Shown here piece after piece: positions 21,305 to 42,751 of a DNA stretch of 64,000 nucleotides. Under the pieces are notes generated by a model. It searched no databases and was not told the DNA's origin. It saw nothing but the letters and a program-made list of their open reading frames with translations. The DNA comes from Coriobacteriales bacterium. Lineage in GTDB: Bacteria > Actinomycetota > Coriobacteriia > Coriobacteriales > QAMH01. The translations under genes and the position numbers were made by a program. The stretch spans positions 33,825 through 97,824 of the forward strand of contig JBMNPN010000001.1 in the NCBI GenBank assembly GCA_050943615.1. The letters are read 5' to 3'. Every line of letters begins with the position of its first letter. Position 1 is the first letter of the stretch.

Positions 21305-21310
21305 GGAAGT

Positions 21311-21379
21311 GCATATATGCAGGTCATCGGGCCAAAGTGGGGACTCTCTTTGGCTTTCTATCTGCATATCCGCAGGTCA
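21311..21379 (+). repeat. two copies of a 16-nt direct repeat in an intra-locus gap
   Basis: GCATATATGCAGGTCA (21311-21326) and GCATATCCGCAGGTCA (21364-21379), 14/16 identical, starts 53 bp apart. Confidence 0.6.
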
Positions 21380-21543
21380 AAGCCGTGTTATTTCCGCACA
21401 GGTTTTTTATCGCCGCTTACCGTCTGCATCGCCGCTGCTGCGGGTTCTTTCGTCTGGCGCGCGCTAAGCTTGAGACATCGAATAGCTACTCGCTTGCCTT
21501 CTCGAAACGTAGTATCCGCTCATCGTTTGAAAGCTCTGTTCAC

Positions 21544-22698
21544 GTGAAAGTTCTCTTCGTGCTCTCTTTGGGGAAGCTCGACGGGGGCGCTGCTCTCGTC
21601 TGGATGAACTTGCTCGACGGCCTGCGCACGCGCGGGGTCGAGCCTTATGTCGTCATCCCCAAAGACGCCGATGGGTCGCTCACATCCGAGCTCGATCGTC
21701 GGAATATCCCCTGGCGCGCGATTTTCTACACCTGGTGGGTCACGAGCAGCTCGAATGAGACCACGCCCCTACGGCGCGTGCGGCGCATGGGCGGCAAGCT
21801 CATCAACCGCAGCACCGACCGTCAAATCGGCGCCTACATGGAAGAATGCGGCATCGAGCTCGTCTACATCTGCGATGGCACGATCACGGCAGGGCTCCAC
21901 GAGGCAAAGCGTCGTGGGATTCCCGTCGTCTGGCATATCCACGAGTTCATCCGCGACACTCCCGGCGGCGTCAAGTTCAGCGACCCGGAAGCGCACGTGG
22001 GATCGACGCTTGCCTTGGCCGATGCCATCATCACGGTCACGCGCTCCATCAAAACCGACCTGCGCACGCGCTTTCCGATGCTCCAGAACATCCATGTCGT
22101 CTACAACGGCATCCCGAAGTCCCGCATCTTCGACAAGCCCGTACGGCCCGAGGGCAAGACGGTCGTCTTCACGCTGGTGGGCAGAATCGATGAGAACAAG
22201 GGCCAGGAAGACGCGATCCGCGCGTTCATCCGCATCGCCCCGAAGTACCCAAATGCCGTGCTGCGCATCGTCGGGACGGGGGACCCAAAGCTCACCGAGC
22301 GTCTCAAGGTACTGGCGGATCGTGGCGCTGCACACGGGTGCATTGAGTTTCTGGGCTATCGCAAGGACATCCCGATTATTTGGCGCGACACCGACATCGC
22401 GCTCAACTGCTCGTATTCGGAAGGCTGCAGCATGGTGCTCTGCGAGGCCATGTCGAGCGGGTGCCTGATGCTGTGCTCGACGGCGGAGAGCAACGTCGAG
22501 CTCATCGATGGCAAGTACGGCGTGCTCTACGAGCGCACCAAGGTCGCCGATCTCGCCGAAAAGATGGCATGGGTCATCGACCATCCCGATGAATGCCAGA
22601 AGCTCGCGCTGGCAGGCAAGCGCCGCGCTCAGCGCATCTTCGACCTCGACCGGCAGATCGACCTGGTCTATCAGATTTTCACCGAGGTACTCAAATGA
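21544..22698 (+). CDS. glycosyltransferase family 4 (GT-B)
   Basis: GTG start giving (M)KVLFVLSLGKLDGGA; C-terminal E-x7-E region SEGCSMVLCEAMSSG. The track extension back to 20785 overlaps the previous gene. Confidence 0.85.
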   Translation: MKVLFVLSLGKLDGGAALVWMNLLDGLRTRGVEPYVVIPKDADGSLTSELDRRNIPWRAIFYTWWVTSSSNETTPLRRVRRMGGKLINRSTDRQIGAYMEECGIELVYICDGTITAGLHEAKRRGIPVVWHIHEFIRDTPGGVKFSDPEAHVGSTLALADAIITVTRSIKTDLRTRFPMLQNIHVVYNGIPKSRIFDKPVRPEGKTVVFTLVGRIDENKGQEDAIRAFIRIAPKYPNAVLRIVGTGDPKLTERLKVLADRGAAHGCIEFLGYRKDIPIIWRDTDIALNCSYSEGCSMVLCEAMSSGCLMLCSTAESNVELIDGKYGVLYERTKVADLAEKMAWVIDHPDECQKLALAGKRRAQRIFDLDRQIDLVYQIFTEVLK

Positions 22699-23687
22699 CA
22701 GCGGGGCCGTTCACTGTCAAAGAACAGGACCCGGAACTTGTGAGCATCGTCATCCCGGTCCACAATGCGGATGCTTATATAGGGAATTGTCTAGAATGTG
22801 TGCTTTCTCAGACGCATGACAGGCTCCAGGTCCTGCTCATCGATGACGGTTCGACTGACAAGAGCGTCCAGATCGTGGACGACGCCGCGGCGCGCGATGG
22901 GCGCGTTGCTGCAATTCACCAGCAAAACGCCGGCCCCGCCGCCGCGCGTAACGCGGGACTCGACCAGGTCAAAGGCGCCTGGGTCATGTTCGTCGATGCC
23001 GATGACGAGATCGAGGCAGACTACGTGGAGCAGATGCTCACCGTTGCCCGGGAGGACAGGGCGGACATCGTGGTGAGCGACTGCATGATCGAGGAGGATG
23101 GCGTGCGCAGCCGTTTTGGCATGATCGTTCCCAACTGCTGCTACGAGGGCGCTGCGGAAGTCTATGCCGACTTCATGCGTGACCACATCCCCTGGAGTCT
23201 CTGGGGCAAGCTCTATAGAGGTGAACTCTTCTCGGACCTGAGATTCTCCGAGGAAAACTACATCGCGGAAGATCTCGAGGCAAACGCGCGGCTCTTTGCG
23301 AAAAAGGGCATCGTGGTCTCGACGACCGATGGGGCGGGGTACTGCTATCACGTCGTCGCAGGTTCGATCGACCACAGCTTCGATGAGCGGTATCTGCGCC
23401 AGTTCTCTGTTTTCGATGACGTGACGTCGCGCGCCGTCGAAGCCGGCCTGGTCGCGCCCGACTTGGCCGCGGTTTTCTATGAGCGGCGTGTGCTCAACTG
23501 CTTTGGCAAGGCGGTAAAGGCGGACGCGCTCGACAAACGGGTCTCCCGTGCGTTTGCCGATGCCATCGCCTCCTATCGGGCAGACGCCATCGCGTGCCCG
23601 GAGGCCCCCGATTGGCTCGTGCGCCAGCTGCGCGTCTCGCGCTTCGGGATGAGCGCTCTTGCTGCTCTCTATAGAGCGCGCGGATAG
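22695..23687 (+). CDS. glycosyltransferase family 2
   Basis: VSIVIPVHNA, IDDGSTD, FVDADDEI; ATGA overlap with the previous stop. Confidence 0.85.
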   Translation: MTAGPFTVKEQDPELVSIVIPVHNADAYIGNCLECVLSQTHDRLQVLLIDDGSTDKSVQIVDDAAARDGRVAAIHQQNAGPAAARNAGLDQVKGAWVMFVDADDEIEADYVEQMLTVAREDRADIVVSDCMIEEDGVRSRFGMIVPNCCYEGAAEVYADFMRDHIPWSLWGKLYRGELFSDLRFSEENYIAEDLEANARLFAKKGIVVSTTDGAGYCYHVVAGSIDHSFDERYLRQFSVFDDVTSRAVEAGLVAPDLAAVFYERRVLNCFGKAVKADALDKRVSRAFADAIASYRADAIACPEAPDWLVRQLRVSRFGMSALAALYRARG

Positions 23688-23763
23688 GTGGCCCGCGCGT
23701 ATCTCCATTTTTCGCATTCTGAGCAGGCGATTGCCCGGATACGCGCAGGCCATGGGCGCGGGG

Positions 23764-23769
23764 TATAAT
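23764..23769 (+). promoter_or_regulatory. TATAAT -10 box positioned for a leaderless licD transcript
   Basis: GGGTATAATTGCGCGCATG: 7 nt separate the -10 box from the ATG at 23777, and there is no SD. Confidence 0.4.
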
Positions 23770-23776
23770 TGCGCGC

Positions 23777-24610
23777 ATGGTCAAGACGGTCACATCTCTA
23801 GAACAGCTGCACCAGCTCGAGCTGGAGGCGCTCTGCGCGGTTGAACGTGCGGCACGTGCCTGCGGCGTCCGCTGGTTTCTGCACGGCGGCACGCTGCTCG
23901 GCGCCATCCGCGAAGGCGGACCGCTCGCCTGGGACGACGACGTCGATATCGCCATGTTGCGCGATGACTTCGACCGCTTCTGCGCCCGTGCTCCGCGTCT
24001 GCTCGATTCGCGCTTCAAGTTGCAGTTCCCGGCGGACTTTCCCGAGTTCTTCGATTTTCTCCCGCGCGTCGTCGATACGGCCTGGCGCTTCGAGGCGGCA
24101 CGCGATGACGCTGCCGGGTTCGGAGGGCGCATCGAGCATCCGGCCATCGACATCTTCGTCTTCGAGCCGGCCTGCGTCTCGCCCGAGCGCGACCGCCTGC
24201 AATCGGCGCTTCTCCAGGCAAACTACGCCGCCGCGCTCGGGTTTCGTCCCGGGTTCTCCCACGAGGGATTCTCGGGCATCGAGCTTGCCGCATCCTACGT
24301 GCTGCCCGTCTGCGGGAAGGCCATCGGGCTTTCGGAGCTCATCGCCCAACGCGAGCGTCTGGCGAGCTGGGGGGACAGCCCGCGCATCCTGCGCATCGTA
24401 AACGAGCTTCCGACCTATGCGGACCTGCGCTGGAACAAGCGCTGGTATCTTCCCAGAGAAGACGGCAGCGAGCGGTATGCATCGTTTTCGGGGGTGCCGC
24501 TTCCCGTGCCCGTCAATGCCGAAGCGGATCTGGAAAACGTCTACGGCCCCGACTGGATGACGCCGCCGCCCCCTGAAAAGCGCGTCCCCCAGCACGCGAG
24601 CCTGTCGTAG
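23777..24610 (+). CDS. licD: LicD family phosphotransferase
   Basis: WFLHGGTLLGAIREGGPLAWDDDVDIAM, the canonical LicD/FKTN nucleotidyltransferase-fold motif. Confidence 0.85.
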   Translation: MVKTVTSLEQLHQLELEALCAVERAARACGVRWFLHGGTLLGAIREGGPLAWDDDVDIAMLRDDFDRFCARAPRLLDSRFKLQFPADFPEFFDFLPRVVDTAWRFEAARDDAAGFGGRIEHPAIDIFVFEPACVSPERDRLQSALLQANYAAALGFRPGFSHEGFSGIELAASYVLPVCGKAIGLSELIAQRERLASWGDSPRILRIVNELPTYADLRWNKRWYLPREDGSERYASFSGVPLPVPVNAEADLENVYGPDWMTPPPPEKRVPQHASLS

Positions 24611-24624
24611 AGGCGGCGTGCGCG

Positions 24625-25929
24625 ATGGCATTCGAGGTCCATTCGGTCAAGTACAACTACTTCATGAACCTGCTGCTCACGGGCTGCTCGATCCTGTTTC
24701 CGCTCATCACGTTTCCGCTGGTGAGCCGTGCTCTTTTGGCGGATGCCTATGGTCTCGTGAACTTCGCGAGCTCCACGGCGAGCTGGCTTTCTCTCATCGC
24801 GATGCTCGGCGTCAACCGCTACGGCACCCGCGAGATTGCCCGCGTGCGCGACAACCCCGCCGAGCTCGCCCGCACAACCCGCGAGATATTCGCGGTGACG
24901 CTCGCCTCGACGCTCATCGTCTTTGCCTGCTTCATCGTGAGCATCTTTCTCGTGGAGCGCTTCTCGCAAGACCGGACGCTCTTTTTTATGAACAGCATCA
25001 CCGTCATCTGCAACACGCTCGGCGTCTCGTGGTTCTTCCAGGGCATCGAGCAGTATCGCTACATCACGGTGCGCGGCGTGATCGTTCAGGCGGTCTGCCT
25101 GTTAGGCGTCATCTTCCTCGTGCACAGCCCGGGCGACTACCTCGTCTACGCCGCACTGCTCATCGCCTCGAGCGCCGTTGCCAACCTCGTGAACTTCTTT
25201 TACATGCTGCGCCTGATGCGAGAGGCGGATGCCGAGGCGTACTACACGCGCGCTCGGCTCGAGCCCAAGCGCCACATAAGGCCGCTTCTCGTCTTCTTCC
25301 TGATCGTGGCGGCCATCTCCATCTACACGATGCTCGACACCGTCATGCTCGGCTTTCTGTCGACCAACGAGCAGGTCGGCTTCTACTCGTCTGCCATCGC
25401 GGTGAAAAACGCCCTGGTGGCGCTCGTTTCGGCGCTTTCGAACGTGCTGCTGCCGCGCACGGCGAACCTCTATGCGCACGGCGAGCACCTCAAGTTCAAG
25501 AAGCTCGTCAGAAAGGCCGTGCGCGTCGTGCTGCTGCTGAGCGTCCCGCTGTCCGTGGTGGTGGCAGTGCTCGCCACGCCGCTCATGACCTGGTACGCGG
25601 GTGCCGCCTTTGCCGGTGCCGGGCCCGCGCTTTCGGTGGTTGCGCTCGCGGTGATCCCCATCGGCCTTTCGGTGATCTTCTGCGACGAGGTGCTGATTCA
25701 GATCGGGCGCGAGGCGACGTGCACGTGGATCTACCTTGCGGCCGCCATCATCGACTTCGTGGGAAACCTCGTCCTCATCCCCATCCTCGGCGCGCTCGGC
25801 GCTGCGATCTCCACCCTGTTCGTCGAGGTGCTCATCACCTTGATCGAGTTCATCTTGGTGCGCCCCTACCTGTGGGGCGGCGCGGACGGCTATGGCCGTG
25901 ACCTGCCGCCGTATCGGCCGCGCGAGTAA
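24625..25929 (+). CDS. wzx: oligosaccharide flippase (Wzx/MOP superfamily)
   Basis: About 12 TMs, N-terminus YNYFMNLLLTGCSILFPLITFPLVSRAL typical of polysaccharide biosynthesis (PST) transporters. Confidence 0.8.
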   Translation: MAFEVHSVKYNYFMNLLLTGCSILFPLITFPLVSRALLADAYGLVNFASSTASWLSLIAMLGVNRYGTREIARVRDNPAELARTTREIFAVTLASTLIVFACFIVSIFLVERFSQDRTLFFMNSITVICNTLGVSWFFQGIEQYRYITVRGVIVQAVCLLGVIFLVHSPGDYLVYAALLIASSAVANLVNFFYMLRLMREADAEAYYTRARLEPKRHIRPLLVFFLIVAAISIYTMLDTVMLGFLSTNEQVGFYSSAIAVKNALVALVSALSNVLLPRTANLYAHGEHLKFKKLVRKAVRVVLLLSVPLSVVVAVLATPLMTWYAGAAFAGAGPALSVVALAVIPIGLSVIFCDEVLIQIGREATCTWIYLAAAIIDFVGNLVLIPILGALGAAISTLFVEVLITLIEFILVRPYLWGGADGYGRDLPPYRPRE

Positions 25930-34541: not shown

Positions 34542-35600
34542 ATGGATCGGCAAGACCCGGTATTCGAGGGGGAGGAAAAGCGGGAGATCGAATCTCTCAC
34601 GACCGTCAAGCGCATCGAAGGCACCTTTCGAAAAGCGGAGCTCTTGCTTCCAGAGGCAGTTCGCGAATGCCCCGGCATCGCGCTGTTCGGCCGTGTCATC
34701 CGCTCTCTGGTCTTTTCCACTGACATCGCGATCATCAGAAACTGCGATGCCGACGCGGTGCTCGCGGTCTACCCGTTCACCTGCCAGCCTTCGATTACCC
34801 AGGCGCTTCTGAGCTACGCCGAGCGTCCCGTCTTCACGGGCGTCTCCGGCGCGGTGACGACGGGTGTGCGCTCGGTCGAGCTTGCCATCCAGTCGGAGAT
34901 GCAGGGCGCCAGTGCCGTCGTCGCCAACACGTCGACGCCGCCCGAGGTCATCGCCAGCATGGCGCGCAGCATCGACATTCCCGTCGTGGTCTCGATCTTC
35001 GAGCTCAACGAGTTTTCCATCGAGCAGATCAACGCGGGCGCGCAGATCGTCAACGTCACGGCGGGCAGGGATACCATGGGAGTCGTCGAGGAGCTGCGCA
35101 CGCTGTATCCCACGCTGCCGATCATCGCGAGTGGCGGAAAGACCAACGAGTCGGTCCGCGCCACCATTGCGGCAGGTGCTGATGCGGTCTCTTGGACGCC
35201 TCCGAGCCTAGCCGAGCTCGAACGCCATTCCATGGAGAAGAACGCTGCGTTGCACAAGCTGAACCGCAATGAGCCCCCTGAGGACGAGACTCCAGAGCAG
35301 CGCGAGTCCCGTCTGCTCAAGTACATATCCAACGCCGCGGGGCAGTTCTACGAAATCGACGAGGAACGTCGTCGCCAGCTGGTGAGCGAGCCTGCCCAGA
35401 GTGTGAACGAGTTCCTCTCGCGCCATCTCGACGTCACCGAGCAGACGCTCCTGCGCTCGCTGATCGCGAAGCTCTTCGAGATCTCGCAGCCTGGAACGGA
35501 TGAGGCCGCCGCCCAGCAGGCCGACCAGCCGGAAGCTCAGGGCGAATCTCAGAACCAAGTTTCAGCCGAAAACGGGAACCAACCTCCTGTGGTGACTTAA
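34542..35600 (+). CDS. TIM-barrel-like (ribulose-phosphate-binding-barrel-like) protein with acidic disordered tail, function unknown
   Basis: Alternating beta/alpha pattern ending LPIIASGGKTNESVRATIAAGADAV; the C-terminal ~110 aa are charged/low complexity. Confidence 0.55.
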   Translation: MDRQDPVFEGEEKREIESLTTVKRIEGTFRKAELLLPEAVRECPGIALFGRVIRSLVFSTDIAIIRNCDADAVLAVYPFTCQPSITQALLSYAERPVFTGVSGAVTTGVRSVELAIQSEMQGASAVVANTSTPPEVIASMARSIDIPVVVSIFELNEFSIEQINAGAQIVNVTAGRDTMGVVEELRTLYPTLPIIASGGKTNESVRATIAAGADAVSWTPPSLAELERHSMEKNAALHKLNRNEPPEDETPEQRESRLLKYISNAAGQFYEIDEERRRQLVSEPAQSVNEFLSRHLDVTEQTLLRSLIAKLFEISQPGTDEAAAQQADQPEAQGESQNQVSAENGNQPPVVT

Positions 35601-35691: not shown

Positions 35692-37560
35692 ATGCAGATT
35701 CGCTTGGCAGACTACGTAGCCGACTTCCTCGTCGACCATGGCATCACCGACTGTTTCATGGTGACCGGCGGTGGGGCGATGTATCTCGACGATGCCCTTG
35801 GGCACAAAGAAGGGCTTCACTGCACGTTCAACCACCACGAGCAGGCCTGCGCCATCGCGGCTGAAGGCTATGCGCGCATCGACAACCGCATTGCTGCGGT
35901 CTGCGTGACGACCGGCCCCGGTGGCACCAACGCGCTCACCGGCGTCGTGGGAGGGTGGCTCGACTCCATCCCGATGCTCATCATCTCGGGCCAGGTGCGC
36001 TATGACACGAGCGCCCGCGGGATGGGCGTGGACGTGCGCGCCGGCGGAGACCAGGAGTTCGACATCACGCGCTGCGTGGACTCCATGACCAAGTACTGCG
36101 AGATGATCGAAGACCCCAAGCGCATCCGCTACGCGCTCGAAAAGGCCCTCTACCTTGCCACCCACGGGCGTCCCGGTCCCTGTTGGATCGACATCCCGGT
36201 CAACTTCCAGGGCTGCACCATCGAGACCGACGAGCTCGTGTCCTACGACCCGGTAGAGGATTCAGACACACTCGCTCCCAAGGTGACGCAAGGCGTCATC
36301 GGGCGTGTGCTCGACAAGGTCGCGGCAGCCGAGCGCCCCGTCTTCTACAGCGGAAACGGCATTCGTCTGGCCGGCGCCTTCGACGAGTTCGAGCTTGCCG
36401 TGCGCCGCCTCGGGATTCCGGTCGTGACCGGCTGGGACAACATCGACATGATGTCCGATGAAGACCCACTCTACGTGGGGCGTGCCGGCATCATGGGCGA
36501 TCGCCCGGGCAATTGGGCCGTGCAGAACGCGACGCTGGTGCTGGCGGTGGGAAGCCGGCTCTCCATTCGCCAGGTCGGCTACAACTGGAAGACCTGGGCG
36601 CGCGCCGCCGAGGTCATCATGGTCGACGTCGATGCAGCCGAGCTCAAGAAACCGACGCTTCACGTCGAGGTGCCCATACAGGCAGACGCCAAGGACTTCC
36701 TCACCGCCCTCAACGCAGAGCTCGATCGTCGAGGCGTGCCCCGTCCGCGCCGTATGGTGCACGATGCGCTCATGTCTGATGCGCTCGTTGCCGATGGCGT
36801 CTGGCAGGCGCGCTGCCGCAAGTGGAAGAAGGTCGCTCCCGTCATCCAGCAGCGCCATTGGGACGACAAGCGCGATACCAACGTCTATGCCTTCATCGAC
36901 GCGCTGAGCTCGCGGCTGCCGGAAGGCTATACCACGGTCGTCGGAAACGGCAGCGCCTGCGTCGTGGGCAGCCACGCCTACCACATCAAGCCCCGCCAGC
37001 GCTTCATCATCAACTCCGCCATCGCCTCGATGGGCTATGACCTGCCCGCCGCAATCGGGGTCAGCAAGGCTCTCGGAGATACCGAGATCGTCTGCGTGAC
37101 CGGGGATGGCTCGATTCAGATGAACCTGCAGGAGCTGCAGACGATCCTCACCAACAAGCTGCCCATCAAGATCTTCGTCATCAACAACCAGGGGTACCAC
37201 TCGATCCGCCAGACCCAGAACAACCTCTTTTCCGAGCACAGCCATGTCGGCATCGGGCCGGAGAGCGGGGATTTGGGCTTCCCCAAGATGTCCAAGCTGG
37301 CAGACGCCTACGGCTACCCGTACTTCTGCTGCCATTCCAACAGCGAGCTCGACGACGTGCTCGATGCGGCCTTTGGGCAGGAGGGCGCCTGCATCACGGA
37401 GGTCTTCGTGAGTCCCGAGCAGCCCTTCGAGCCCAAGAGCGCCACTAAGCGCCTGCCCGATGGCAGCCTCTACAGCCCGCCGCTCGAGGATCTCAAGCCC
37501 TTCTTGAGCCGTGAGGAGCTCCAGCGGATCATGATCGTCCCGCTCCTTCCCGAAGAATAG
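35692..37560 (+). CDS. thiamine-diphosphate-dependent enzyme, acetolactate-synthase-like
   Basis: N-terminal Pyr domain (VTGGGAMYL, HEQACAIAAEGYARI, TTGPGGTNALTG) and C-terminal PP domain (GDGSIQMNLQELQT). Confidence 0.9.
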   Translation: MQIRLADYVADFLVDHGITDCFMVTGGGAMYLDDALGHKEGLHCTFNHHEQACAIAAEGYARIDNRIAAVCVTTGPGGTNALTGVVGGWLDSIPMLIISGQVRYDTSARGMGVDVRAGGDQEFDITRCVDSMTKYCEMIEDPKRIRYALEKALYLATHGRPGPCWIDIPVNFQGCTIETDELVSYDPVEDSDTLAPKVTQGVIGRVLDKVAAAERPVFYSGNGIRLAGAFDEFELAVRRLGIPVVTGWDNIDMMSDEDPLYVGRAGIMGDRPGNWAVQNATLVLAVGSRLSIRQVGYNWKTWARAAEVIMVDVDAAELKKPTLHVEVPIQADAKDFLTALNAELDRRGVPRPRRMVHDALMSDALVADGVWQARCRKWKKVAPVIQQRHWDDKRDTNVYAFIDALSSRLPEGYTTVVGNGSACVVGSHAYHIKPRQRFIINSAIASMGYDLPAAIGVSKALGDTEIVCVTGDGSIQMNLQELQTILTNKLPIKIFVINNQGYHSIRQTQNNLFSEHSHVGIGPESGDLGFPKMSKLADAYGYPYFCCHSNSELDDVLDAAFGQEGACITEVFVSPEQPFEPKSATKRLPDGSLYSPPLEDLKPFLSREELQRIMIVPLLPEE

Positions 37561-37572
37561 GGAGGCCGTGCG

Positions 37573-38325
37573 CTAGCCCAGCAGGTGGACGAGCTCGCCG
37601 ATGCGGCCGATGGTGACCGTGTCGGGGTATTCTTGCGTGCCGATGAGCACGGAAGGGCAACCGAAGCGGTTGGCCATGAGGATGTCGCTTCCGTAGGTGT
37701 CGCCCACGACGAGCGCCTCTTTTTCCGTGATGGAGAGCTGCGAACAGAGCATCTCGAGCATGAGCGTGTTGGGCTTGCCGATTACATAGTCCGAGCTGCG
37801 GCCCGAGCACCACTCGATGGGCGCGACCATGCCACCGCATCCCGGGAACCACTGTGCCCCCTCGCCGCGAAAAACCTTCTCCTTGTTGCAGGCGATGATG
37901 CGCTTGGCGCGCAGCGCCACGCGCACGGCATCGGTGAGCTTGGCGTAATCGAAGGCGGGGTCATAGCCGATGAAGAGGTTCTCCGCCTCGGATGCCAGGG
38001 CGGTCGAGACCCCGACCTCCTCGAATTCGCTTGCCAGGTCAGCCGACCCGCACAGGTAGATCTTTCCGAGCCCTTCTCTCTTTGCATAGAGGGCGGCCAC
38101 ATAGCCGCTCGTCACGACCTCGTCGAAGGCGCAGTCGATGTCCATCCCGGAGAGCTTCTCGTACAGCTGCGCGCGGGTCTTGGTCGAGTTGTTGGTGAGG
38201 AAGAAAACCCGTTTTCCCAGCTCGCGGCAGCGCTCGATCGCCTCGTTTGCCCCCTCGATGATGCGCGACCCATAGTAGATCGTGCCATCGAGGTCGAACA
38301 TGACCGCTTTCGTCTGCTCGAACAT
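37573..38325 (-). CDS. HAD-IIA (NagD-like) phosphatase
   Basis: FDLDGTIY, FLTNNSTK, VGDTYGSDI motifs; ATG 38325 after AAGGAAG. Confidence 0.85.
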   Translation of the reverse strand: MFEQTKAVMFDLDGTIYYGSRIIEGANEAIERCRELGKRVFFLTNNSTKTRAQLYEKLSGMDIDCAFDEVVTSGYVAALYAKREGLGKIYLCGSADLASEFEEVGVSTALASEAENLFIGYDPAFDYAKLTDAVRVALRAKRIIACNKEKVFRGEGAQWFPGCGGMVAPIEWCSGRSSDYVIGKPNTLMLEMLCSQLSITEKEALVVGDTYGSDILMANRFGCPSVLIGTQEYPDTVTIGRIGELVHLLG

Positions 38326-38359: not shown

Positions 38360-38989
38360 CTAGGAGCGAGTCGCATCGATTGCCGCCCGGAATTCACGGG
38401 CGCGCTTGGTCACGCCGGCAAGGCCGTCTTCTCCGAGCTTGGTGAGCTTGCCTCCCGCCCCCAGGGCAAATGCCCCAGCGGAAATCCAGGCGGCGGCGTT
38501 GTCGATGCTTATTCCGCCCGTCGGCATGATCTTGAGGTCGGGCAGGGGCGCGTGCACCGCCTTGATGAAGCCTGGGTCAAAGGAGCTCGCGGGGAAGAAC
38601 TTGACGACCTCGCAGCCTGCCGTGTGCGCGGTGTACATCTCGTTGACGGTCATGCAGCCGGGGATATAAGGAACGCCACCCTCTGCGCAGCGTGCGAGCA
38701 CGTCTGCGCTGTAGGTGGGGGCCACGATGTAGCGGGCGCCTGCGGCAATGGCCTCTTTAGCCTGCTCGGCGGTGAGCACGGTACCCGCGCCGACGATGAG
38801 CTCGGGGCTGGCCGAAAGTTCCGAGATGGCTTCTGCGGCACCGGGCACACTGTAGGTGACCTCGATGGCGTGCACGCCACCCTGCGCGCAGGCACCTGCG
38901 ACGGAAAGGGCGGTCTTGACGTCGGGGGAGCGCAATACGGCGACAATTCCCTCATTGTGGAGCGTGTCGAAAAGCTCAGTGGTGTCCAT
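38360..38989 (-). CDS. eda: KDPG/KHG aldolase family protein
   Basis: IVAVLRSPD, HAIEVTY, GAGTVLT, VKFFPA, MPTGGI blocks; ATG 38989. Confidence 0.85.
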   Translation of the reverse strand: MDTTELFDTLHNEGIVAVLRSPDVKTALSVAGACAQGGVHAIEVTYSVPGAAEAISELSASPELIVGAGTVLTAEQAKEAIAAGARYIVAPTYSADVLARCAEGGVPYIPGCMTVNEMYTAHTAGCEVVKFFPASSFDPGFIKAVHAPLPDLKIMPTGGISIDNAAAWISAGAFALGAGGKLTKLGEDGLAGVTKRAREFRAAIDATRS

Positions 38990-39119
38990 CCCTTGCCTTC
39001 CCTCTTTCGAATGCACCGTATCTGGCGAGATTATGGCCAATACGACGCGTAATAGGACGACTCAAGTTCGTCAGGTAATAGTATCATGTGCTGCATTAGC
39101 AGATGAAAGAGGGAGACTG

Positions 39120-40109
39120 ATGAAACGAGCTGCAATCACCGGAGTGACGGGCATGATCGGCTCCGCACTCGCCGACCTGTTGTCCGAGCAGGGCGTCGAG
39201 GTAATCGCCGTTGCCAACCCCAATTCCAAGCGACTTTCCGAATCGGTGGCAGATGACGACCCGAACATTACCATCCTGCCCCTGTCGGGATCCGAATACG
39301 ATGAGTTTGCCCAAGGTCCCGTTGCCGCAAAGCTTCCGCGCTGCGATGTGTTCTTCCACCTTGCCTGGGACGGCACCTTTGGGCCCGAGCGCGCGGACGC
39401 GGAGCGCCAGGCCGCAAACGTCGAGATGTCCCTTGCCGCCGTCCGGCTGGCCGCCGCGCTGGGCTGCAAGCGCTTCGTGTTCGCGGGTAGCCAGGCCGAA
39501 TACGGAAAGCTCGAGGGCAAGTTCTCGGCAGACACGCCCTGCCATCCCATTACAGAGTACGGGAAGGCCAAGTTCGAGGCGGAGAAAAAGACCCGCGAGC
39601 TGTGCCACGAGCTGGGGCTCGAGCACATCGCCGCGCGCATCGGCTCTGCCTACGGGCCGGGCGACAACGACGGCACCGTGCTCATCCAGGCCATATGGCA
39701 TGCCTGGCACGAGGAGCCCTTTGCCTGCACGAAAGGCGAGCAGCTCTGGGACCACATCTACTGCGAGGACGCGGCCGATGCCCTGCGCCTGATGGGCGAG
39801 AAGGGCAAGGCGGATGCCGTCTATCCAGTTGGCACGGGTCATGCCGAGCCGCTGCGCGAGCACATCCAGATGGCCTGCGAGGTCTGCAACCCCGACTTCA
39901 CCCCCGACTTTGGCGCGCTTGAGTACCCTAAAGACCAGGTGATGTACTTGTGCGCGGACATCTCCCAGCTCACAAAGGACACGGGCTTCCAGGCGCTCGT
40001 TCCCTTCGAGCAGGGAATCTACCGCACGGCCGAGTGGTACCGCGACATGATCACGCGCGTTCCCGAGATGCCCTGGCAAAAGCACGGGGGGCTTGATGTC
40101 ATCGCCTAG
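39120..40109 (+). CDS. NAD-dependent epimerase/dehydratase (extended SDR)
   Basis: AAITGVTGMIGSAL Rossmann motif, YGKAK catalytic motif. Confidence 0.85.
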   Translation: MKRAAITGVTGMIGSALADLLSEQGVEVIAVANPNSKRLSESVADDDPNITILPLSGSEYDEFAQGPVAAKLPRCDVFFHLAWDGTFGPERADAERQAANVEMSLAAVRLAAALGCKRFVFAGSQAEYGKLEGKFSADTPCHPITEYGKAKFEAEKKTRELCHELGLEHIAARIGSAYGPGDNDGTVLIQAIWHAWHEEPFACTKGEQLWDHIYCEDAADALRLMGEKGKADAVYPVGTGHAEPLREHIQMACEVCNPDFTPDFGALEYPKDQVMYLCADISQLTKDTGFQALVPFEQGIYRTAEWYRDMITRVPEMPWQKHGGLDVIA

Positions 40110-41160
40110 CAGCATACCGCGCGAGACTCCCAGCGCTGCCTACCAGGACGCGCAGGCAGCGGCCGGCGCTTCTTCTCAAGCGCAGGCGGGGGAGGTGCCG
40201 AAGGCCCCCGCGCCAGAGGTTCGCAGGAAGAAGATCAGCATCCTCGTGCCCTGCTACAACGAGGAGGACAACGTCATCCCCATCAGCGAGGCCATCATCG
40301 ACGTTCTGGAACGCGAGCTTTCTGAATACGACTACGAGCTCCTCTTTATCGACAACTGCTCGACGGACCTGACCCGGCCGCGCCTGCGCCAGCTGTGCGC
40401 GGGCAACCGCAAGATCCGCGCCATCTTCAACGCCAAGAACTTCGGGCAGTTCAACTCCCCGTATTACGGCCTCATGCAGACGACGGGAGACTGCGCCATC
40501 TGCATCTGCGCCGACTTCCAGGACCCGCCCGAGCTCATTCCGCGTTTCGTGGAGGAATGGGAGAAGGGCGCGCAGATCGTCTGCGGCATCAAGACGTCCT
40601 CGCAGGAGAGCAAGTTCATGTACTGGCTGCGCACGCGCTACTACCGCTTCATCCAGAAGGCAAGCGATGTCGAGCAGATCGAGCACTTCACCGGCTTTGG
40701 GCTTTACGACCGCAGCTTTCTCGAGGTCATGCGCGGGCTGGACGACCCGACGCCGTTTCTGCGCGGTATCGTGGCCGAGCTCGGCGGCAAGCGCGTCGAC
40801 ATCGAGTACGAGCAGGCCGAGCGAAAGCACGGCAAGACCCACAACAACTGGTACACGCTCTACGATGCGGCGATGCTGAGCTTTACCTCGTATACCAAGG
40901 TGCCCCTGCGCGTGGCGACCATCGGCGGCTTTGTCATGTCGGTCTTCTTCATCCTGCTCGCCATCGTTCTCTTCATCGTCAAGCTCGTGAACTGGCATGC
41001 GTTTGCCGGGGGACAGGTCTCCATCCTCATCGTCACGCTCCTCATGGGCTCGATCATTCTCTTTTTCCTGGGATTGCTGGGAGAGTACATCATGAGCATC
41101 GCGCAGCGGGTCATGCACCGGCCCTTGGTCGTCGAAGAAGAGCGAATCAACTTCTCATGA
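40096..41160 (+). CDS. GT2 polyprenyl-phosphate glycosyltransferase (ArnC/GtrB/Ppm1-like) with two C-terminal TMs
   Basis: ISILVPCYNEEDN, IDNCSTD, CADFQDPPE plus C-terminal hydrophobic helices. Overlaps the SDR stop by 14 nt. Confidence 0.85.
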   Translation: MSSPSSIPRETPSAAYQDAQAAAGASSQAQAGEVPKAPAPEVRRKKISILVPCYNEEDNVIPISEAIIDVLERELSEYDYELLFIDNCSTDLTRPRLRQLCAGNRKIRAIFNAKNFGQFNSPYYGLMQTTGDCAICICADFQDPPELIPRFVEEWEKGAQIVCGIKTSSQESKFMYWLRTRYYRFIQKASDVEQIEHFTGFGLYDRSFLEVMRGLDDPTPFLRGIVAELGGKRVDIEYEQAERKHGKTHNNWYTLYDAAMLSFTSYTKVPLRVATIGGFVMSVFFILLAIVLFIVKLVNWHAFAGGQVSILIVTLLMGSIILFFLGLLGEYIMSIAQRVMHRPLVVEEERINFS

Positions 41161-42719
41161 AGAGGCGTTTTCTCCCACAGGAAACCACTCGCCGCTACGA
41201 TGTCATCTACCATGCCGGTGTCGGGCTGCTCATGGTCGTCGTCGGCATCTACCTCGTCTATCTGGGTGCGACGACATCCCTGTGGCTCGACGACATCTTC
41301 CAGGTCGAGTACTGCCGCTCGACCACGTTTGCGCAGATCCTCCTTATCGACCCGCTCACGCCACCGCTCTTCAACGTGTTCGTATGGTGCTGGTACCGCA
41401 TCGTGCCCTATGGCGAGATCTGGCTGCGCCTGCCCTCGATCGCCTTCGTGCTCGCGTGCCTGCCCCTGATTGCGGCGACGGGGCGGCGCATGGGCGGCAG
41501 GCGCACGGGCTTTCTCTCAGCATTCCTGCTCGCCATCAACGCCAAGGTGCTCAGCCAGATGGCGCTCAGCTTCAGGGCCTATGCGCTGCTGCTCTTCCTG
41601 TCCACGTTGCTCATCTACCTGTACGTCCGTCGCGTCCAGACGCCCAAGGACGAGGTCAGCTGGAAGCTCAGCATCGGAACCGGGCTTGCGATGCTCGCCC
41701 TCGGCTACACGCACTACTTTGGCGTGGTTCTGTGCTGCGCGTTCTTCATCATCGACCTCTACCTGGTCGTGCGACGGCGTCTCGATGGAATCCGCGCCAA
41801 GGTCTTCGTGCCGTATGCTATCGCGCTCGTCGGCTACATCCCTTGGGCCGTTGTCGCAGCGGGCGCCTTGACGCACACGGTGAACGCGACCGCCACGTCG
41901 GCTGCCTCGACGCGCTGGCATGAGGCATCGAGCAACCTGACGGTGCACGGGCTTCTCTATTGGCTGTGCGGGGAGTGCGCCGAGACGCTCGGATTCTTCC
42001 ACGTCGCGGCCATCATTGTGCTGGTCGTTGCCGTCTACCGCTGCGTGCGCCGTACCTTTGACTGGCGATCCGAAATGCCGGTGCTCGCGCTGGTCGTCAT
42101 CACCATCGTGTTCATTGCCGGGATGTGGGCCTACACGCATCTCGTGAACACGTCGTCCACGCTGTGGGTCGAGCGCTATTTCACGCCGCTCGTGCCCTGC
42201 ATCGCCCTTGCCACGGGCTGGGGCATCGCAAAGATCTTTTCCTGGATTCCCACGACCGACCCCGTTCGCTTCATCGCGGCGTTCCTGTGCGTCGTGCTGC
42301 TCGTCCCGACCACGCTCGGCACGGTGCACAACGACCTTTCCGAGGGTTCGAGCACGCGCTTCTACGCGCATCTCACGGAGTACCTCGAGAGTCGTTCCGA
42401 CATTTCGAGCGACAAGACTTGCGTGCTCGCCCTGATCGACACGACGGGGCGGGGACAGCAGATCGAGGGCTGGAAGCACTATTACTTCAATCGCAAGGAC
42501 ACGCGCGATTTCAAGGTGACCATCTGGGACGGTCTCGACCCGAGCGTCATCGTGAACCCCGAGGACCTGCTCCAGTTCGACACCATCTATGTGACGCGCC
42601 AGCACTTTGACCCGCAGCTTCCCAAGACCTACGAGCGCCTGTTCAGGGAACACTACAAGAAGCACTCCACGACAAACCCCGGTTGGGGCGAGACGACCTA
42701 CTACACGCGCATTGACTAA
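41157..42719 (+). CDS. GT-C glycosyltransferase (PMT_2 / ArnT-like)
   Basis: ATGA overlap with the GT2. Polytopic, with LWLDDIF (DD motif) in the first external loop and a C-terminal soluble domain. Confidence 0.8.
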   Translation: MKRRFLPQETTRRYDVIYHAGVGLLMVVVGIYLVYLGATTSLWLDDIFQVEYCRSTTFAQILLIDPLTPPLFNVFVWCWYRIVPYGEIWLRLPSIAFVLACLPLIAATGRRMGGRRTGFLSAFLLAINAKVLSQMALSFRAYALLLFLSTLLIYLYVRRVQTPKDEVSWKLSIGTGLAMLALGYTHYFGVVLCCAFFIIDLYLVVRRRLDGIRAKVFVPYAIALVGYIPWAVVAAGALTHTVNATATSAASTRWHEASSNLTVHGLLYWLCGECAETLGFFHVAAIIVLVVAVYRCVRRTFDWRSEMPVLALVVITIVFIAGMWAYTHLVNTSSTLWVERYFTPLVPCIALATGWGIAKIFSWIPTTDPVRFIAAFLCVVLLVPTTLGTVHNDLSEGSSTRFYAHLTEYLESRSDISSDKTCVLALIDTTGRGQQIEGWKHYYFNRKDTRDFKVTIWDGLDPSVIVNPEDLLQFDTIYVTRQHFDPQLPKTYERLFREHYKKHSTTNPGWGETTYYTRID

Positions 42720-42751
42720 ACCGTGGGAAATCCCGCGCGTAGCAAGCAGGC

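What the first reader, a model, noticed from the sequence alone, without database searches (positions are those of the whole stretch)
39120..42719. Translationally coupled SDR / polyprenyl-phosphate GT2 / PMT-ArnT-like GT-C module
The three genes overlap: a 14-nt overlap at 40096-40109 and an ATGA overlap at 41157-41160. The logic matches ArnA/ArnC/ArnT or Ppm1/Pmt. A nucleotide sugar is modified, loaded onto a polyprenyl phosphate by a GT2 with two C-terminal TMs, flipped, and transferred outside by a GT-C with a DD motif (LWLDDIF) in its first loop. The extracytoplasmic acceptor (protein Ser/Thr, lipoglycan or wall polymer) is unknown. The window itself encodes several exported proteins with Ser/Thr-rich tracts, namely the MreC tail and the L,D-transpeptidase linker, which would be plausible protein acceptors.
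Basis: partly seen in the sequence, partly recalled or inferred. Interest (0 to 1): 0.55.

Follow-up and report, generated by a model that had tools for sequence, protein, structure and literature searches.

The report
Lipid-linked branched-sugar surface glycosylation module
The three overlapping genes are real and most likely load a sugar onto a membrane lipid carrier and attach it to the cell surface, but the sugar is probably an unusual branched dideoxy-sugar made by a larger neighbouring pathway, a route that none of the literature searches found described.

Summary
An SDR (39120-40109), a GtrB/ArnC-type GT2 with two C-terminal TM helices (40096-41160) and a GT-C (41157-42719) lie head to tail. 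They are joined by an ATGA overlap and, if the ATG at 40096 is the start, a 14-nt overlap.

The three-component logic is supported: a polyprenyl-phosphate sugar synthase plus an extracytoplasmic GT-C.

The ArnA/GalE-like reading of the SDR is not supported. Its family sits, across Clostridia, archaea and Proteobacteria, after CDP-glucose 4,6-dehydratase, the RfbH 3-dehydrase and a YerE-like ThDP enzyme, often with a pyruvate aldolase, and directly before this GT2 clade.

The window holds most of these parts:
- CDP-glucose 4,6-dehydratase, 15806-16963
- RfbH, 17068-18438
- a YerE-like ThDP enzyme, 35692-37560 (JanthE, E 3e-120)
- a KDPG-type aldolase plus HAD phosphatase, divergent from the SDR and conserved beside it in all eight relatives

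The cytidylyltransferase (DdhA) and the E3 reductase were not found.

Best reading: a yersiniose/erwiniose-type acyl-branched 3,6-dideoxyhexose is reduced by the SDR, moved to undecaprenyl phosphate by the GT2, and transferred outside by the GT-C. The acceptor is unresolved; the adjacent Wzx-type wall polymer and Ser-rich envelope proteins are both candidates. This is a new variant of a known kind. Interest is moderate.

The parts
39120..40109 (+). Extended SDR, proposed NADPH-dependent side-chain ketoreductase (YerF/ErwF-like) of a branched CDP-dideoxyhexose pathway
   Evidence: Pfam Epimerase 120 bits. S124/Y147/K151 triad and TGxTGxxG motif. No acidic residue at the end of beta2; the family consensus there is R-P-x-S-K-R. 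Family neighbours: ThDP enzyme directly upstream in 24/33 groups, E1 within 6 kb in 19/25, DdhA within 8 kb in 22/25.
40096..41160 (+). GtrB/ArnC-class GT2, polyprenyl-phosphate sugar synthase; an alternative start is the GTG at 40195
   Evidence: PDB 5EKE/5EKP (sll0501 GtrB) E 5e-41; ArnC E 3e-29. NCBIfam PgfS 164 bits and ArnC 123 bits, both below cutoff. TM helices at 280-298 and 310-328. Motifs FIDNCSTD at 84 and CADFQDPPE at 138. Homologues 58-84% identical lie directly downstream of the SDR family in 24/40 groups.
41157..42719 (+). GT-C glycosyltransferase (PMT_2-type, GT-C_A fold) with a C-terminal extracytoplasmic alpha/beta domain
   Evidence: Pfam PMT_2 32.1 bits against 26.1; all 21 homologues hit PMT_2. 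AlphaFold model pLDDT 86, pTM 0.86. Foldseek best matches: ArnT 5EZM E 1e-8, then STT3/PglB/AglB, DPY19, Pmt4, Emb. D45 is invariant in LWLD[DE].
38360..39040 (-). KDPG/KHG-type (Eda) class I pyruvate aldolase, divergent from the SDR; the true start is probably the ATG at 38989
   Evidence: Pfam Aldolase 143 bits; TIGR01182 173 bits against 156. Present next to the SDR in all 8 related contigs. Homologues are 207-213 aa.
37573..38325 (-). HAD-IIA phosphatase, co-directional with the aldolase
   Evidence: TIGR01460 129 bits against 100. 67-75% identical copies lie next to the aldolase in all 8 related contigs.
35692..37560 (+). YerE-like ThDP-dependent carboligase (acetolactate-synthase fold)
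   Evidence: Three TPP domains. All NCBIfam acetolactate synthase models score far below their cutoffs. PDB 8RPH JanthE, a characterised YerE-like enzyme, scores E 3e-120 and 405 bits, against 216 bits for the best acetolactate synthase. It is 62-75% identical to Clostridia enzymes that sit between E1 and the SDR.
34542..35600 (+). Unknown soluble protein, conserved directly upstream of the ThDP gene in Coriobacteriia; alternating beta/alpha pattern, weak similarity to the Eda barrel
   Evidence: No Pfam or NCBIfam hit. 57% identical copies in L005 and L104. Weak hits to HisF/IMPDH barrels. The single-sequence model was unusable.
15806..16963 (+). CDP-glucose 4,6-dehydratase (DdhB/RfbG)
   Evidence: TIGR02622 395 bits against a cutoff of 278. 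57% identical to the gene that precedes E1-ThDP-SDR-GT2 in L057.
17068..18438 (+). RfbH/E1, CDP-6-deoxy-4-hexulose 3-dehydrase
   Evidence: NF011936 671 bits against a cutoff of 423. 65% identical to E1 in L057 and L103.
18468..25929 (+). Rest of a Wzx-type wall-glycan operon: a membrane protein of about 8-12 hydrophobic segments, GT2 (20348-21304), unknown ORF, GT2 (22593-23687), LicD (23777-24610), Wzx flippase (24625-25929). Candidate acceptor polymer and candidate flippase.
   Evidence: Pfam. Hydropathy. Colinear and contiguous with U352-ThDP in L104.

Best explanation
The SDR/GT2/GT-C trio is the delivery end of a longer pathway that builds an acyl-branched 3,6-dideoxyhexose of the yersiniose/erwiniose/caryophyllose kind and attaches it to an envelope acceptor from a lipid-linked donor.

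Proposed steps:
1. CDP-glucose 4,6-dehydratase (15806-16963) and the RfbH 3-dehydrase (17068-18438) make CDP-4-keto-3,6-dideoxyglucose.
2. The Eda-type aldolase (38360-39040) condenses pyruvate with a phosphorylated aldehyde, canonically glyceraldehyde-3-P giving KDPG. The HAD-IIA phosphatase (37573-38325) removes the phosphate, before or after ligation.
3. The YerE-like ThDP enzyme (35692-37560) decarboxylates the keto acid and joins it to C4 of the keto sugar.
4. The SDR (39120-40109) reduces the side-chain carbonyl with NADPH.
5. The GtrB-like GT2 (40096-41160) transfers the finished sugar from its nucleotide to undecaprenyl phosphate.
6. An unidentified flippase turns the lipid-linked sugar outward. 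No GtrA gene is in the window, and the Wzx-like gene at 24625-25929 is a candidate.
7. The GT-C (41157-42719) transfers the sugar, with D45 as the likely catalytic base, to an extracytoplasmic acceptor. The most likely acceptor is the wall polymer made by the adjacent Wzx/LicD operon.

Basis of each step. Shown by homology and structure prediction: the family assignments of all the enzymes. Shown by comparative genomics: their recurrent linkage. Inferred: the substrates, the order of steps, the CDP donor for the GT2, the side-chain identity and the acceptor.
For: Family assignments:
- GT2 matches GtrB and ArnC structures over the full length.
- GT-C has the GT-C_A fold with an invariant loop-1 Asp.
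- CDP-glucose 4,6-dehydratase and RfbH pass the NCBIfam equivalog cutoffs.
- The ThDP enzyme hits the YerE-like JanthE at E 3e-120, twice the score of any acetolactate synthase.
- The SDR has an NADP-type motif.

Linkage, from 80 metagenome loci holding SDR relatives, collapsed to 49 groups:
- ThDP gene directly upstream in 24/33.
- E1 within 6 kb in 19/25.
- Glucose-1-P cytidylyltransferase within 8 kb in 22/25.
- This GT2 clade directly downstream in 24/40.
- A pyruvate aldolase (HMGL, HpcH or Eda type) within 8 kb in 15/25.
- A HAD phosphatase (6/25) or a PfkB kinase (2/25) within 8 kb in some.

Specific loci:
- Clostridia locus L103 reads DdhA-DdhB-E1-x-GT87-ThDP-SDR-GT2.
- An archaeal locus (L019) and proteobacterial and Paenibacillus plasmids (L101, L102) show the same theme, with transketolase-type ThDP enzymes and GT2/GtrA.
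- In Coriobacteriia, L104 has E1...Wzx-U352-ThDP contiguous and L005 has Wzx-AT3-U336-ThDP-HAD-Eda-SDR-GT2-GT-C contiguous. The window's pieces are therefore one locus split by an insertion.
- The aldolase-HAD pair flanks the SDR in all 8 related contigs, spanning GC 39-66%.

Precedent: the scheme of aldolase + ThDP enzyme + NAD(P)H reductase + ddh genes is the published signature of acyl-branched sugar clusters (PMC9306805).
Against: - No enzyme here has been assayed.
- GtrB-class enzymes characterised so far use UDP- or GDP-sugars. A CDP donor is an assumption.
- In 6 of the 8 Coriobacteriia contigs no ThDP, E1 or dehydratase gene lies within the ~8 kb of sequence fetched on either side of the trio.
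- The window's ThDP gene is 72-77% identical to Clostridia genes, so it may be a recent arrival rather than an ancestral partner.
- The cytidylyltransferase (DdhA) was not found in the window. No E3 reductase (DdhD) was seen among the annotated genes, but it was not specifically searched for.
- One relative (L016) lacks the GT2 between the SDR and the GT-C.
- The aldolase-HAD adjacency could be inherited synteny, since PBP1A, a two-component system and other genes are also syntenic.
- The dehydratase/RfbH genes could instead feed Leloir transferases of the Wzx operon.
Confidence: 0.55

Rival explanations
1. The SDR is a UDP-sugar 4-epimerase or decarboxylase that makes a common sugar (Gal, GalNAc, GalA or a pentose). 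The GT2 makes the Und-P-sugar. The GT-C O-glycosylates Ser/Thr-rich disordered tails of envelope proteins such as MreC, the L,D-transpeptidase or PBP1A, as GtrB/PgtC2 and the Pgf system do in streptococci.
For: - The best solved relatives of the SDR are UDP-hexose 4-epimerase 4ZRM (E 1e-20) and the UDP-GlcA epimerase MoeE5.
- The best NCBIfam hit of the GT2 is PgfS.
- MreC has a ~90-aa poly-Ser tail and the L,D-transpeptidase has a T/S-rich linker.
- PBP1A is adjacent in 7 of 8 contigs, and in L001 it carries a Gly/Ser-rich tail.
- Streptococcal Ser/Thr tails, including that of PBP1a, are glycosylated by such systems (PMC12041528).
- 6 of 8 relatives have no ThDP gene in the sequence fetched around the trio.
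Against: - The PDB matches of the SDR are remote, and no epimerase equivalog model is reached.
- The SDR family is bound to CDP-dideoxyhexose and ThDP genes and has an NADP-type motif.
- The streptococcal protein transferases are YfhO-type, not PMT_2-type.
- The window's own PBP1A has no Ser/Thr tail.
- PgfS membership fails, 164 bits against a cutoff of 500.
- The acceptor half of this model (protein) could still be true even if the sugar is the branched one.
Confidence: 0.2
2. The SDR is a plain C4-ketoreductase (CDP-abequose/paratose-synthase-like) that makes an unbranched 3,6-dideoxyhexose. That sugar is loaded on Und-P and transferred by the GT-C. The ThDP enzyme, the aldolase and the HAD phosphatase are unrelated neighbours.
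For: - The SDR family co-occurs with ddhA, ddhB and rfbH even where the ThDP enzyme is of another type or is placed differently.
- 6 of 8 Coriobacteriia contigs show no ThDP gene in the sequence fetched around the trio.
- 9 of 33 groups lack a ThDP gene directly upstream.
Against: - A ThDP enzyme (YerE-like or transketolase-type) accompanies the SDR in most loci, and in the window itself.
- This reading leaves the aldolase+HAD pair, conserved in all 8 contigs, unexplained.
- It also leaves unexplained the independent recruitment of three different pyruvate-aldolase families.
Confidence: 0.15
3. The three genes are neighbours but not one pathway. The SDR serves cytoplasmic sugar-nucleotide synthesis for the Wzx-dependent polymer. 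The GT2/GT-C pair independently adds a common hexose, as in Gtr-type glucosylation.
For: - L016 has the SDR and the GT-C without the GT2.
- In 16 of 40 groups the SDR is not followed by the GT2.
Against: - Start/stop overlaps or gaps of at most 67 nt join the trio in 7 of 8 contigs.
- The specific GT2 clade (58-84% identity) follows this SDR family across phyla.
- GtrA-SDR and GT2/GtrA fusions tie the SDR family to lipid-carrier biochemistry.
Confidence: 0.1

Closest known systems
Three-component extracytoplasmic glycosylation systems (GtrA/GtrB/GtrC of Shigella/Salmonella phages; CsbB/GtcA/YfhO; GacI/J/K/L; ArnC/ArnT)
   Same: A GT2 with two C-terminal TM helices makes a polyprenyl-phosphate monosaccharide, and a GT-C enzyme uses it outside the membrane. 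The operon is tight. The GT2 aligns over its full length with the GtrB and ArnC structures.
   Different: The sugar-supply genes point to a CDP-activated, ThDP-branched dideoxyhexose rather than UDP-Glc, UDP-GlcNAc or Ara4FN. No GtrA or small flippase gene is in the locus. The GT-C belongs to a narrow PMT_2-type clade: 23 close clusters in the word-indexed search and 262 representatives at E<=1e-30 in the profile search. It is not a GtrC, YfhO or ArnT orthologue.
Acyl-branched sugar pathways: yersiniose (YerE/YerF), erwiniose (ErwE/F/I/J), caryophyllose (MMAR_2331-2333), gastriose (PMC9306805)
   Same: The enzyme set matches: ddh-type dehydratase and 3-dehydrase, a YerE-like ThDP carboligase, an NAD(P)H reductase beside it, and a pyruvate aldolase that supplies a longer keto-acid donor.
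   Different: In the described cases the CDP-sugar is used by cytoplasmic Leloir transferases for LPS or LOS. Here, and in many Clostridia loci, the reductase is followed by a GtrB-like GT2 and a GT-C, implying a lipid-linked donor. The aldolase is of the KDPG (class I) type and is paired with a phosphatase, which suggests a phosphorylated, polyhydroxylated donor. The hosts are Gram-positive gut anaerobes.
Pentofuranose three-component systems (Citrobacter youngae O1/O2; GT136; PMC11127046) and mycobacterial DPA/arabinan synthesis
   Same: A lipid-linked monosaccharide donor, a GT-C for post-polymerisation side-chain addition, an auxiliary SDR that sets the sugar identity, and a HAD-family phosphatase step.
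   Different: Those donors are made from PRPP by a UbiA-type synthase, not by a GT2. The SDR there epimerises the lipid-linked pentose. The flippase is MATE-type.
Streptococcus mutans Pgf system and GtrB/PgtC2 protein O-glycosylation (PMC12041528, PMC5856776)
   Same: An epimerase-family SDR, a GtrB-like GT2 and GT-C genes lie in one cluster. The targets are Ser/Thr-rich tails of envelope proteins, including PBP1a, and such tails exist in this window.
   Different: The Pgf and PgtC transferases are YfhO-type. PgfS equivalog membership fails, 164 bits against 500. The sugars there are GalNAc or Glc from UDP donors.
ArnT (GT83) and protein O-mannosyltransferases (GT39)
   Same: The same GT-C_A fold. 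ArnT is the best structural match. The acidic pair after TM1 resembles the DE motif.
   Different: Identity is 11-16%. The model has no MIR domain. The PMT (PF02366) model is hit only weakly by 2 of 21 members, and PMT_4TMC is not hit at all. There are no arnA/B/D or ppm1 partners. Lipid A is not expected as an acceptor in this actinobacterial lineage (general knowledge, not tested here).

Membership tests
GtrB/ArnC-class polyprenyl-phosphate glycosyltransferases (GT2) | GT-A catalytic domain with acidic motifs, matching solved members over the full length | tested here: met
   Pfam GT2 84 bits. 5EKE/5EKP E 5e-41 over residues 46-346; ArnC 9HWJ E 3e-29 over 45-345. Motifs FIDNCSTD and CADFQDPPE are present.
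GtrB/ArnC-class polyprenyl-phosphate glycosyltransferases (GT2) | Two C-terminal transmembrane helices | tested here: met
   Hydropathy peaks at 280-298 and 310-328, inside the region aligned to the GtrB and ArnC structures.
GtrB/ArnC-class polyprenyl-phosphate glycosyltransferases (GT2) | Makes a polyprenyl-phosphate monosaccharide from a nucleotide sugar | not testable with these tools
   Needs a membrane assay with labelled nucleotide sugars.
PgfS (S. mutans) equivalog | Score at or above the NCBIfam NF047588 cutoff | tested here: not met
   164 bits against a cutoff of 500.
ArnC equivalog / Arn pathway | ArnC model cutoff reached, and arnA/arnB/arnD partners present | tested here: not met
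   123 bits against 529. No formyltransferase or deformylase was found among the genes annotated between 11296 and 52525 and at 55481-61525. The only DegT-family protein is RfbH, not an ArnB-type aminotransferase.
GT-C fold, class A (ArnT/STT3/PMT/DPY19-like) | Multi-helix membrane domain with the conserved N-terminal module, recognised by structure comparison | tested here: met
   Model pLDDT 86, pTM 0.86. Foldseek probability 1.00 to ArnT, STT3, PglB, AglB, DPY19, ALG9, Pmt4 and Emb, with TM up to 0.56.
GT-C fold, class A (ArnT/STT3/PMT/DPY19-like) | Invariant acidic residue in the first extracytoplasmic loop | tested here: met
   D45 is invariant in 21 sequences; position 46 is D or E. It lies directly after TM1. 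The catalytic role is inferred.
Protein O-mannosyltransferase Pmt (GT39) | PMT (PF02366) and PMT_4TMC domains; a Ppm1-type polyprenyl-P-mannose synthase partner | tested here: not met
   Only PMT_2 is hit. PF02366 is hit weakly by 2 of 21 members, and PMT_4TMC is not among the families hit. No PDB sequence hit to the PMT structures. The partner GT2 matches DPMS only over its N-terminal 120 residues.
YfhO-type GT-C (LTA or protein glycosylation in Firmicutes) | PF09586 YfhO domain | tested here: not met
   No YfhO hit in any of the 21 members.
YerE-like ThDP carboligases (window 35692-37560) | Closer to characterised YerE-like enzymes than to acetolactate synthase; placed in a deoxy-sugar cluster | tested here: met
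   JanthE 8RPH E 3e-120 and 405 bits end to end, against 216 bits for the best acetolactate synthase. JanthE is described as YerE-like in PMC12188165. Acetolactate synthase equivalog cutoffs are missed by more than 200 bits. Homologues sit between E1 and the SDR.
Acyl-branched 3,6-dideoxyhexose pathway (yersiniose/erwiniose type) | Genes for CDP-4-keto-3,6-dideoxyglucose (ddhA, ddhB, ddhC/rfbH, ddhD) | tested here: inconclusive
   ddhB (395 bits against 278) and rfbH (671 against 423) are present. ddhA was not found in the window. No ddhD/E3 was recognised among the annotated genes, but I ran no search aimed at it.
Acyl-branched 3,6-dideoxyhexose pathway (yersiniose/erwiniose type) | NAD(P)H reductase partnered with the ThDP enzyme (YerF/ErwF role) | tested here: inconclusive
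   Adjacency statistics (24/33) and an NADP-type motif fit the role. No direct comparison with YerF or ErwF sequences was possible. In the window the two genes are 1.5 kb apart, separated by the aldolase/HAD pair.
Acyl-branched 3,6-dideoxyhexose pathway (yersiniose/erwiniose type) | Pyruvate aldolase that supplies a gamma-hydroxy-alpha-keto acid donor | tested here: inconclusive
   An Eda-type aldolase is present and conserved next to the SDR. Aldolases of three families recur in related loci (15/25). The substrate is unknown.

The most novel reading that the evidence does not exclude
A so far undescribed glycosylation route, widespread in gut Clostridia and Coriobacteriia. A CDP-activated, ThDP-built acyl-branched 3,6-dideoxyhexose is handed to undecaprenyl phosphate by a dedicated GtrB-like clade, the first such enzyme to use a CDP-sugar. 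GT-C enzymes then add it to wall polymers or Ser-rich envelope proteins after export. In this window the side chain would derive from KDPG/KDG, giving a new 11-carbon sugar.
Probability: 0.4. Interest if true: 0.7.

Novelty: new variant of a known kind. Interest (0 to 1): 0.5.

Why it matters
If correct, this links two fields that have been studied apart. One is ThDP-dependent branched-sugar biosynthesis, known from LPS/LOS of Yersinia, Pectobacterium and mycobacteria and from antibiotics. The other is lipid-carrier/GT-C post-export glycosylation.

- It would extend the donor range of GtrB-class enzymes to CDP-sugars.
- It predicts rare, strongly antigenic branched dideoxy-sugars on the surface of abundant gut anaerobes (Lachnospiraceae, Ruminococcaceae, Coriobacteriales), where wall glycans are almost uncharted.
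- The gene signature (rfbH, YerE-like ThDP enzyme, this SDR, this GT2 clade) is simple enough to mine genomes with. That makes the question testable with a handful of recombinant enzymes.
- The ThDP enzymes of this class are also sought-after biocatalysts for tertiary alcohols.

If only the generic reading holds, this is one more three-component system with an unknown acceptor, which is ordinary.

Tried and rejected
1. Cross-phylum transfer of the five-gene block. L010 is labelled Acutalibacteraceae and has 40% GC. However, L017 (41% GC) carries the same block together with PBP1A (55% identity), Fer4, a TRAM methyltransferase and a PPIase, in the order seen in Coriobacteriales. The low-GC copies are therefore probably low-GC Coriobacteriia or a mis-binned contig. 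I dropped the claim.
2. GtrA flippase. tblastn with two GtrA sequences found nothing in the window.
4. Sequence and profile searches of the GT-C against PDB gave no meaningful hit.
5. U352 (34542-35600): no family hit, and the single-sequence AlphaFold model had pLDDT 41, which is unusable.
6. The plasmid collection searched with the ThDP enzyme returned only true acetolactate synthases at ~30% identity. With the SDR as query it gave two informative distant loci.
7. The promoter/terminator scan of 37400-43000 showed nothing above shuffles that bears on the operon.
8. Literature searches for Coriobacteriia GT-C systems, for yersiniose outside Gram-negatives and antibiotics, and for branched sugars combined with GtrB or undecaprenyl phosphate found no description of this combination.
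9. The supplement of PMC9306805, which might have given ErwF and YerF sequences, is not held.
10. PBP1A as a conserved Ser/Thr-tailed acceptor. The tail is present in L001 but absent in the window and in L005.

Full report
**1. Observation**

The window is a 62% GC contig of a Coriobacteriales MAG. The GT-C, SDR, GT2, ThDP and HAD proteins are found at 100% identity under that NCBI label.

- SDR: 39120-40109, with a GAGGGAG ribosome-binding site.
- GT2: 40096-41160.
- GT-C: 41157-42719.

The ATGA overlap is certain. The 14-nt overlap needs the ATG at 40096. Public gene callers agree with that start. But the first ~45 residues are low-complexity and absent from homologues, and the GTG at 40195 is a credible alternative start.

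The other details also check out:
- The two C-terminal TM helices of the GT2.
- The LWLDDIF motif after TM1 of the GT-C.
- The Ser-rich tails of MreC and the L,D-transpeptidase.

**2. What the three proteins are**

*GT2.* It aligns over its whole length, membrane helices included, with Synechocystis GtrB (E 5e-41) and ArnC (E 3e-29). It reaches no NCBIfam equivalog cutoff: PgfS 164 bits against 500, ArnC 123 against 529. It is therefore a GtrB/ArnC-class polyprenyl-phosphate sugar synthase of its own clade.

*GT-C.*
- It passes Pfam PMT_2 narrowly, 32 bits against 26.
- It has no sequence-level match in the PDB.
- A model built from 21 homologues is confident, with pLDDT 86 and pTM 0.86.
- The model matches ArnT best (E 1e-8, TM 0.54), then STT3/PglB/AglB, DPY19, ALG9, Pmt4 and Emb. 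This is the GT-C_A fold.
- D45 in the first outside loop is invariant.
- The close family is small: 23 clusters at 48-100% identity in the word-indexed search, which then falls to E 1e-9. The exhaustive profile search instead finds a graded wider family: a next hit at 340 bits, 262 representatives at E<=1e-30, and about 11,000 in the PMT_2 superfamily.
- The fold does not tell the acceptor.

*SDR.* It is an extended SDR with an intact S-Y-K triad. It has only remote similarity to solved epimerases and reaches no equivalog model.

**3. Surroundings in relatives**

In eight distinct contigs, with GC from 39 to 66%, the block HAD-IIA(-) / Eda aldolase(-) <> SDR / GT2 / GT-C is conserved.
- One contig (L016) lacks the GT2.
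- One contig (L018) has a RelB gene inserted.
- PBP1A follows the block in seven of the eight.

I first read the 39-41% GC copies, one of which is labelled Acutalibacteraceae, as a cross-phylum transfer. L017 shows extended Coriobacteriales synteny, so I withdrew that reading.

**4. The turn: what the SDR family keeps company with**

SDR relatives at 40-47% identity are abundant in Lachnospiraceae and other Clostridia, and also occur in a Methanobacteriaceae MAG. First contexts showed an acetolactate-synthase-like ThDP enzyme, an HMGL-like aldolase, GtrA, the same GT2 clade and assorted GT-C genes. One protein is a GtrA-SDR fusion.

I fetched 80 metagenome loci, clustered all their ORFs and collapsed near-duplicates to 49 groups. 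The neighbours of the SDR were:

| Neighbour | Frequency |
|---|---|
| ThDP gene directly upstream | 24/33 |
| RfbH-type 3-dehydrase within 6 kb | 19/25 |
| Glucose-1-P cytidylyltransferase within 8 kb | 22/25 |
| This GT2 clade directly downstream | 24/40 |
| Pyruvate aldolase (HMGL, HpcH/HpaI or Eda type) within 8 kb | 15/25 |
| HAD-IA phosphatase within 8 kb (it sits between aldolase and ThDP gene in the full set) | 6/25 |

The typical gene order is DdhA-DdhB-E1-[aldolase-HAD]-ThDP-SDR-GT2-(GT-C). The Clostridia locus L103 is a clean example and also carries a GT87 GT-C.

More distant SDR relatives (32% identity) on a Methylovirgula plasmid and a Paenibacillus plasmid lie among rfbF, rfbG, rfbH, a split transketolase (another ThDP enzyme), and GT2 plus GtrA.

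**5. The window has most of the same parts**

- 15806-16963 passes the CDP-glucose 4,6-dehydratase equivalog model (395 bits against 278), and 17068-18438 passes RfbH (671 against 423).
- These two genes head a Wzx-type operon with a multi-pass membrane protein (about 8-12 hydrophobic segments), two GT2 genes, LicD and Wzx.
- The ThDP enzyme at 35692-37560 matches JanthE (PDB 8RPH) at E 3e-120 and 405 bits, against 216 bits for the best acetolactate synthase. JanthE is described as a YerE-like enzyme (PMC12188165).
- The ThDP enzyme is also 62-75% identical to the Clostridia enzymes that sit between E1 and the SDR.
- In the Coriobacteriia contig L104, E1-membrane protein-GT2-GT4-GT2-LicD-Wzx-U352-ThDP are contiguous. 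In L005, Wzx-AT3-U336-ThDP-HAD-Eda-SDR-GT2-GT-C are contiguous.
- The window's 15.8-26 kb and 34.5-42.7 kb are therefore one glycan locus. It is interrupted by an ~8.6 kb insertion carrying two lactonase-like propellers, LysR and a molybdopterin oxidoreductase.
- Not found: the cytidylyltransferase DdhA. No E3 reductase (DdhD) was recognised either, although I ran no search aimed at it.

**6. Mechanism**

The published signature of acyl-branched sugar clusters is: ddh genes, a YerE-like ThDP carboligase, an adjacent NAD(P)H reductase, and a pyruvate aldolase that makes a gamma-hydroxy-alpha-keto acid donor (PMC9306805).

The present locus fits that signature, with two additions:
- A phosphatase is paired with a KDPG-type aldolase. 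This suggests a phosphorylated donor such as KDPG, which becomes KDG.
- A GtrB-like GT2 plus a GT-C follow the reductase. This suggests the finished sugar is moved to undecaprenyl phosphate and added outside the membrane.

The SDR family lacks the acidic residue at the end of beta2 and carries R-P-x-S-K-R there. In extended SDRs this motif goes with NADP(H) reductases rather than NAD-bound epimerases. That rule is established SDR knowledge; applying it here is inference.

An SDR acting within a lipid-carrier system has a precedent in Citrobacter youngae O2 (PMC11127046).

The flippase is unknown. No GtrA gene is in the window. A relative of the GT-C is fused to a Wzx-like MOP transporter (P0207), which makes the Wzx-like gene at 24625-25929 a candidate.

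The acceptor is unknown:
- The co-located Wzx/LicD polymer is my first choice, by analogy with Gtr, Gac and LTA glycosylation.
- Ser-rich tails of envelope proteins remain possible, by analogy with streptococci (PMC12041528).

**7. Weak points**

- Nothing has been assayed.
- A CDP donor for a GtrB-class enzyme has no precedent that I know of.
- Six of the eight Coriobacteriia contigs show no ThDP or ddh gene in the ~8 kb fetched on either side of the trio.
- The window's ThDP gene looks recently acquired from Clostridia, at 72-77% identity.
- DdhA was not found in the window, and no E3 reductase was recognised.
- The aldolase/HAD adjacency might be plain synteny.
- I could not align the SDR with YerF or ErwF.

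I put 0.55 on the full model and about 0.85 on the generic three-component reading.

**8. Comparison and novelty**

The module works like the Gtr, Arn, CsbB-YfhO and Gac systems, and its supply side works like the yersiniose and erwiniose pathways.

It is not a member of any of these:
- Pmt/GT39: no PMT_4TMC hit, and only weak PF02366 hits in 2 of 21 members.
- ArnT/Arn: no Arn partners.
- Pgf: the PgfS cutoff is missed, and the GT-C is not YfhO-type.

My literature searches found no description of a branched dideoxyhexose delivered through a polyprenyl-phosphate/GT-C route.

I rate it a new variant of a known kind, with moderate interest.

Noticed in passing
window 26035-33945: An ~8.6 kb stretch carries two 7-bladed 'lactonase' beta-propeller genes (minus strand), a LysR regulator and a molybdopterin oxidoreductase. 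It interrupts a glycan operon that is contiguous in relatives L104 and L005, so it looks like an insertion.
   Followed up: partly
window 56528-57682: MreC ends in about 90 residues of almost pure serine, outside the membrane. It lies in an mreB-mreC-PBP2-rodA cluster.
   Followed up: partly
window 44896-46521 (minus strand): An L,D-transpeptidase with ChW repeats and a Thr/Ser/Asp/Gly-rich linker after the signal peptide. It is next to a BspA-type LRR protein (46679-47698).
   Followed up: no
window 34542-35600; L005 1641-2651; L104 7964-8962: A soluble protein with no family hit is conserved immediately upstream of the YerE-like ThDP gene, in Coriobacteriia only. It has an alternating beta/alpha pattern and weak similarity to the Eda, HisF and IMPDH barrels. 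It may be a second aldolase-like enzyme.
   Followed up: partly
L016 1092-3772: In one relative the SDR is followed directly by the GT-C (57-nt gap), with no GT2 between them.
   Followed up: partly
L010, L003, L017: Copies of the five-gene block occur on 39-41% GC contigs, one of them in a MAG labelled Acutalibacteraceae. Synteny in L017 points to low-GC Coriobacteriia, so the label may reflect a mis-binned contig or a transfer.
   Followed up: partly
L007 546-1919 (P0064); P0207; L102 8950-10857 and 14116-15159: Several domain fusions link the parts: GtrA-SDR, a Wzx-like MOP flippase fused to a GT-C related to the window's, a 636-aa SDR-family protein (about twice the usual length) lying directly before a transketolase C-terminal-domain gene, and a bifunctional GT2/GtrA.
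   Followed up: partly
window 35692-37560: The ThDP enzyme is 72-77% identical to many Clostridia proteins, whereas the neighbouring SDR (~45%) and GT2 (~64%) are much less similar to their Clostridia counterparts. This suggests recent horizontal acquisition of the ThDP gene.
   Followed up: partly
P0158-P0160 and many others: Most of the wider relatives of the GT-C are ~700 aa and carry a ~220-residue N-terminal extension with no Pfam match.
   Followed up: no
L018 3756-4034: A RelB antitoxin gene is inserted in the divergent region between the aldolase and the SDR.
   Followed up: no
L001 9685-11919: The PBP1A next to the module in this relative has a ~100-residue Gly/Ser/Asp-rich C-terminal tail. 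The window's PBP1A (42752-44674) lacks it.
   Followed up: partly
L036; L041, L053, L078, L085, L019: In some Firmicute and archaeal loci the aldolase (Eda or HpcH type) is paired with a PfkB-family kinase instead of a phosphatase. The direction of the phosphate step in the side-chain supply is therefore unclear.
   Followed up: no
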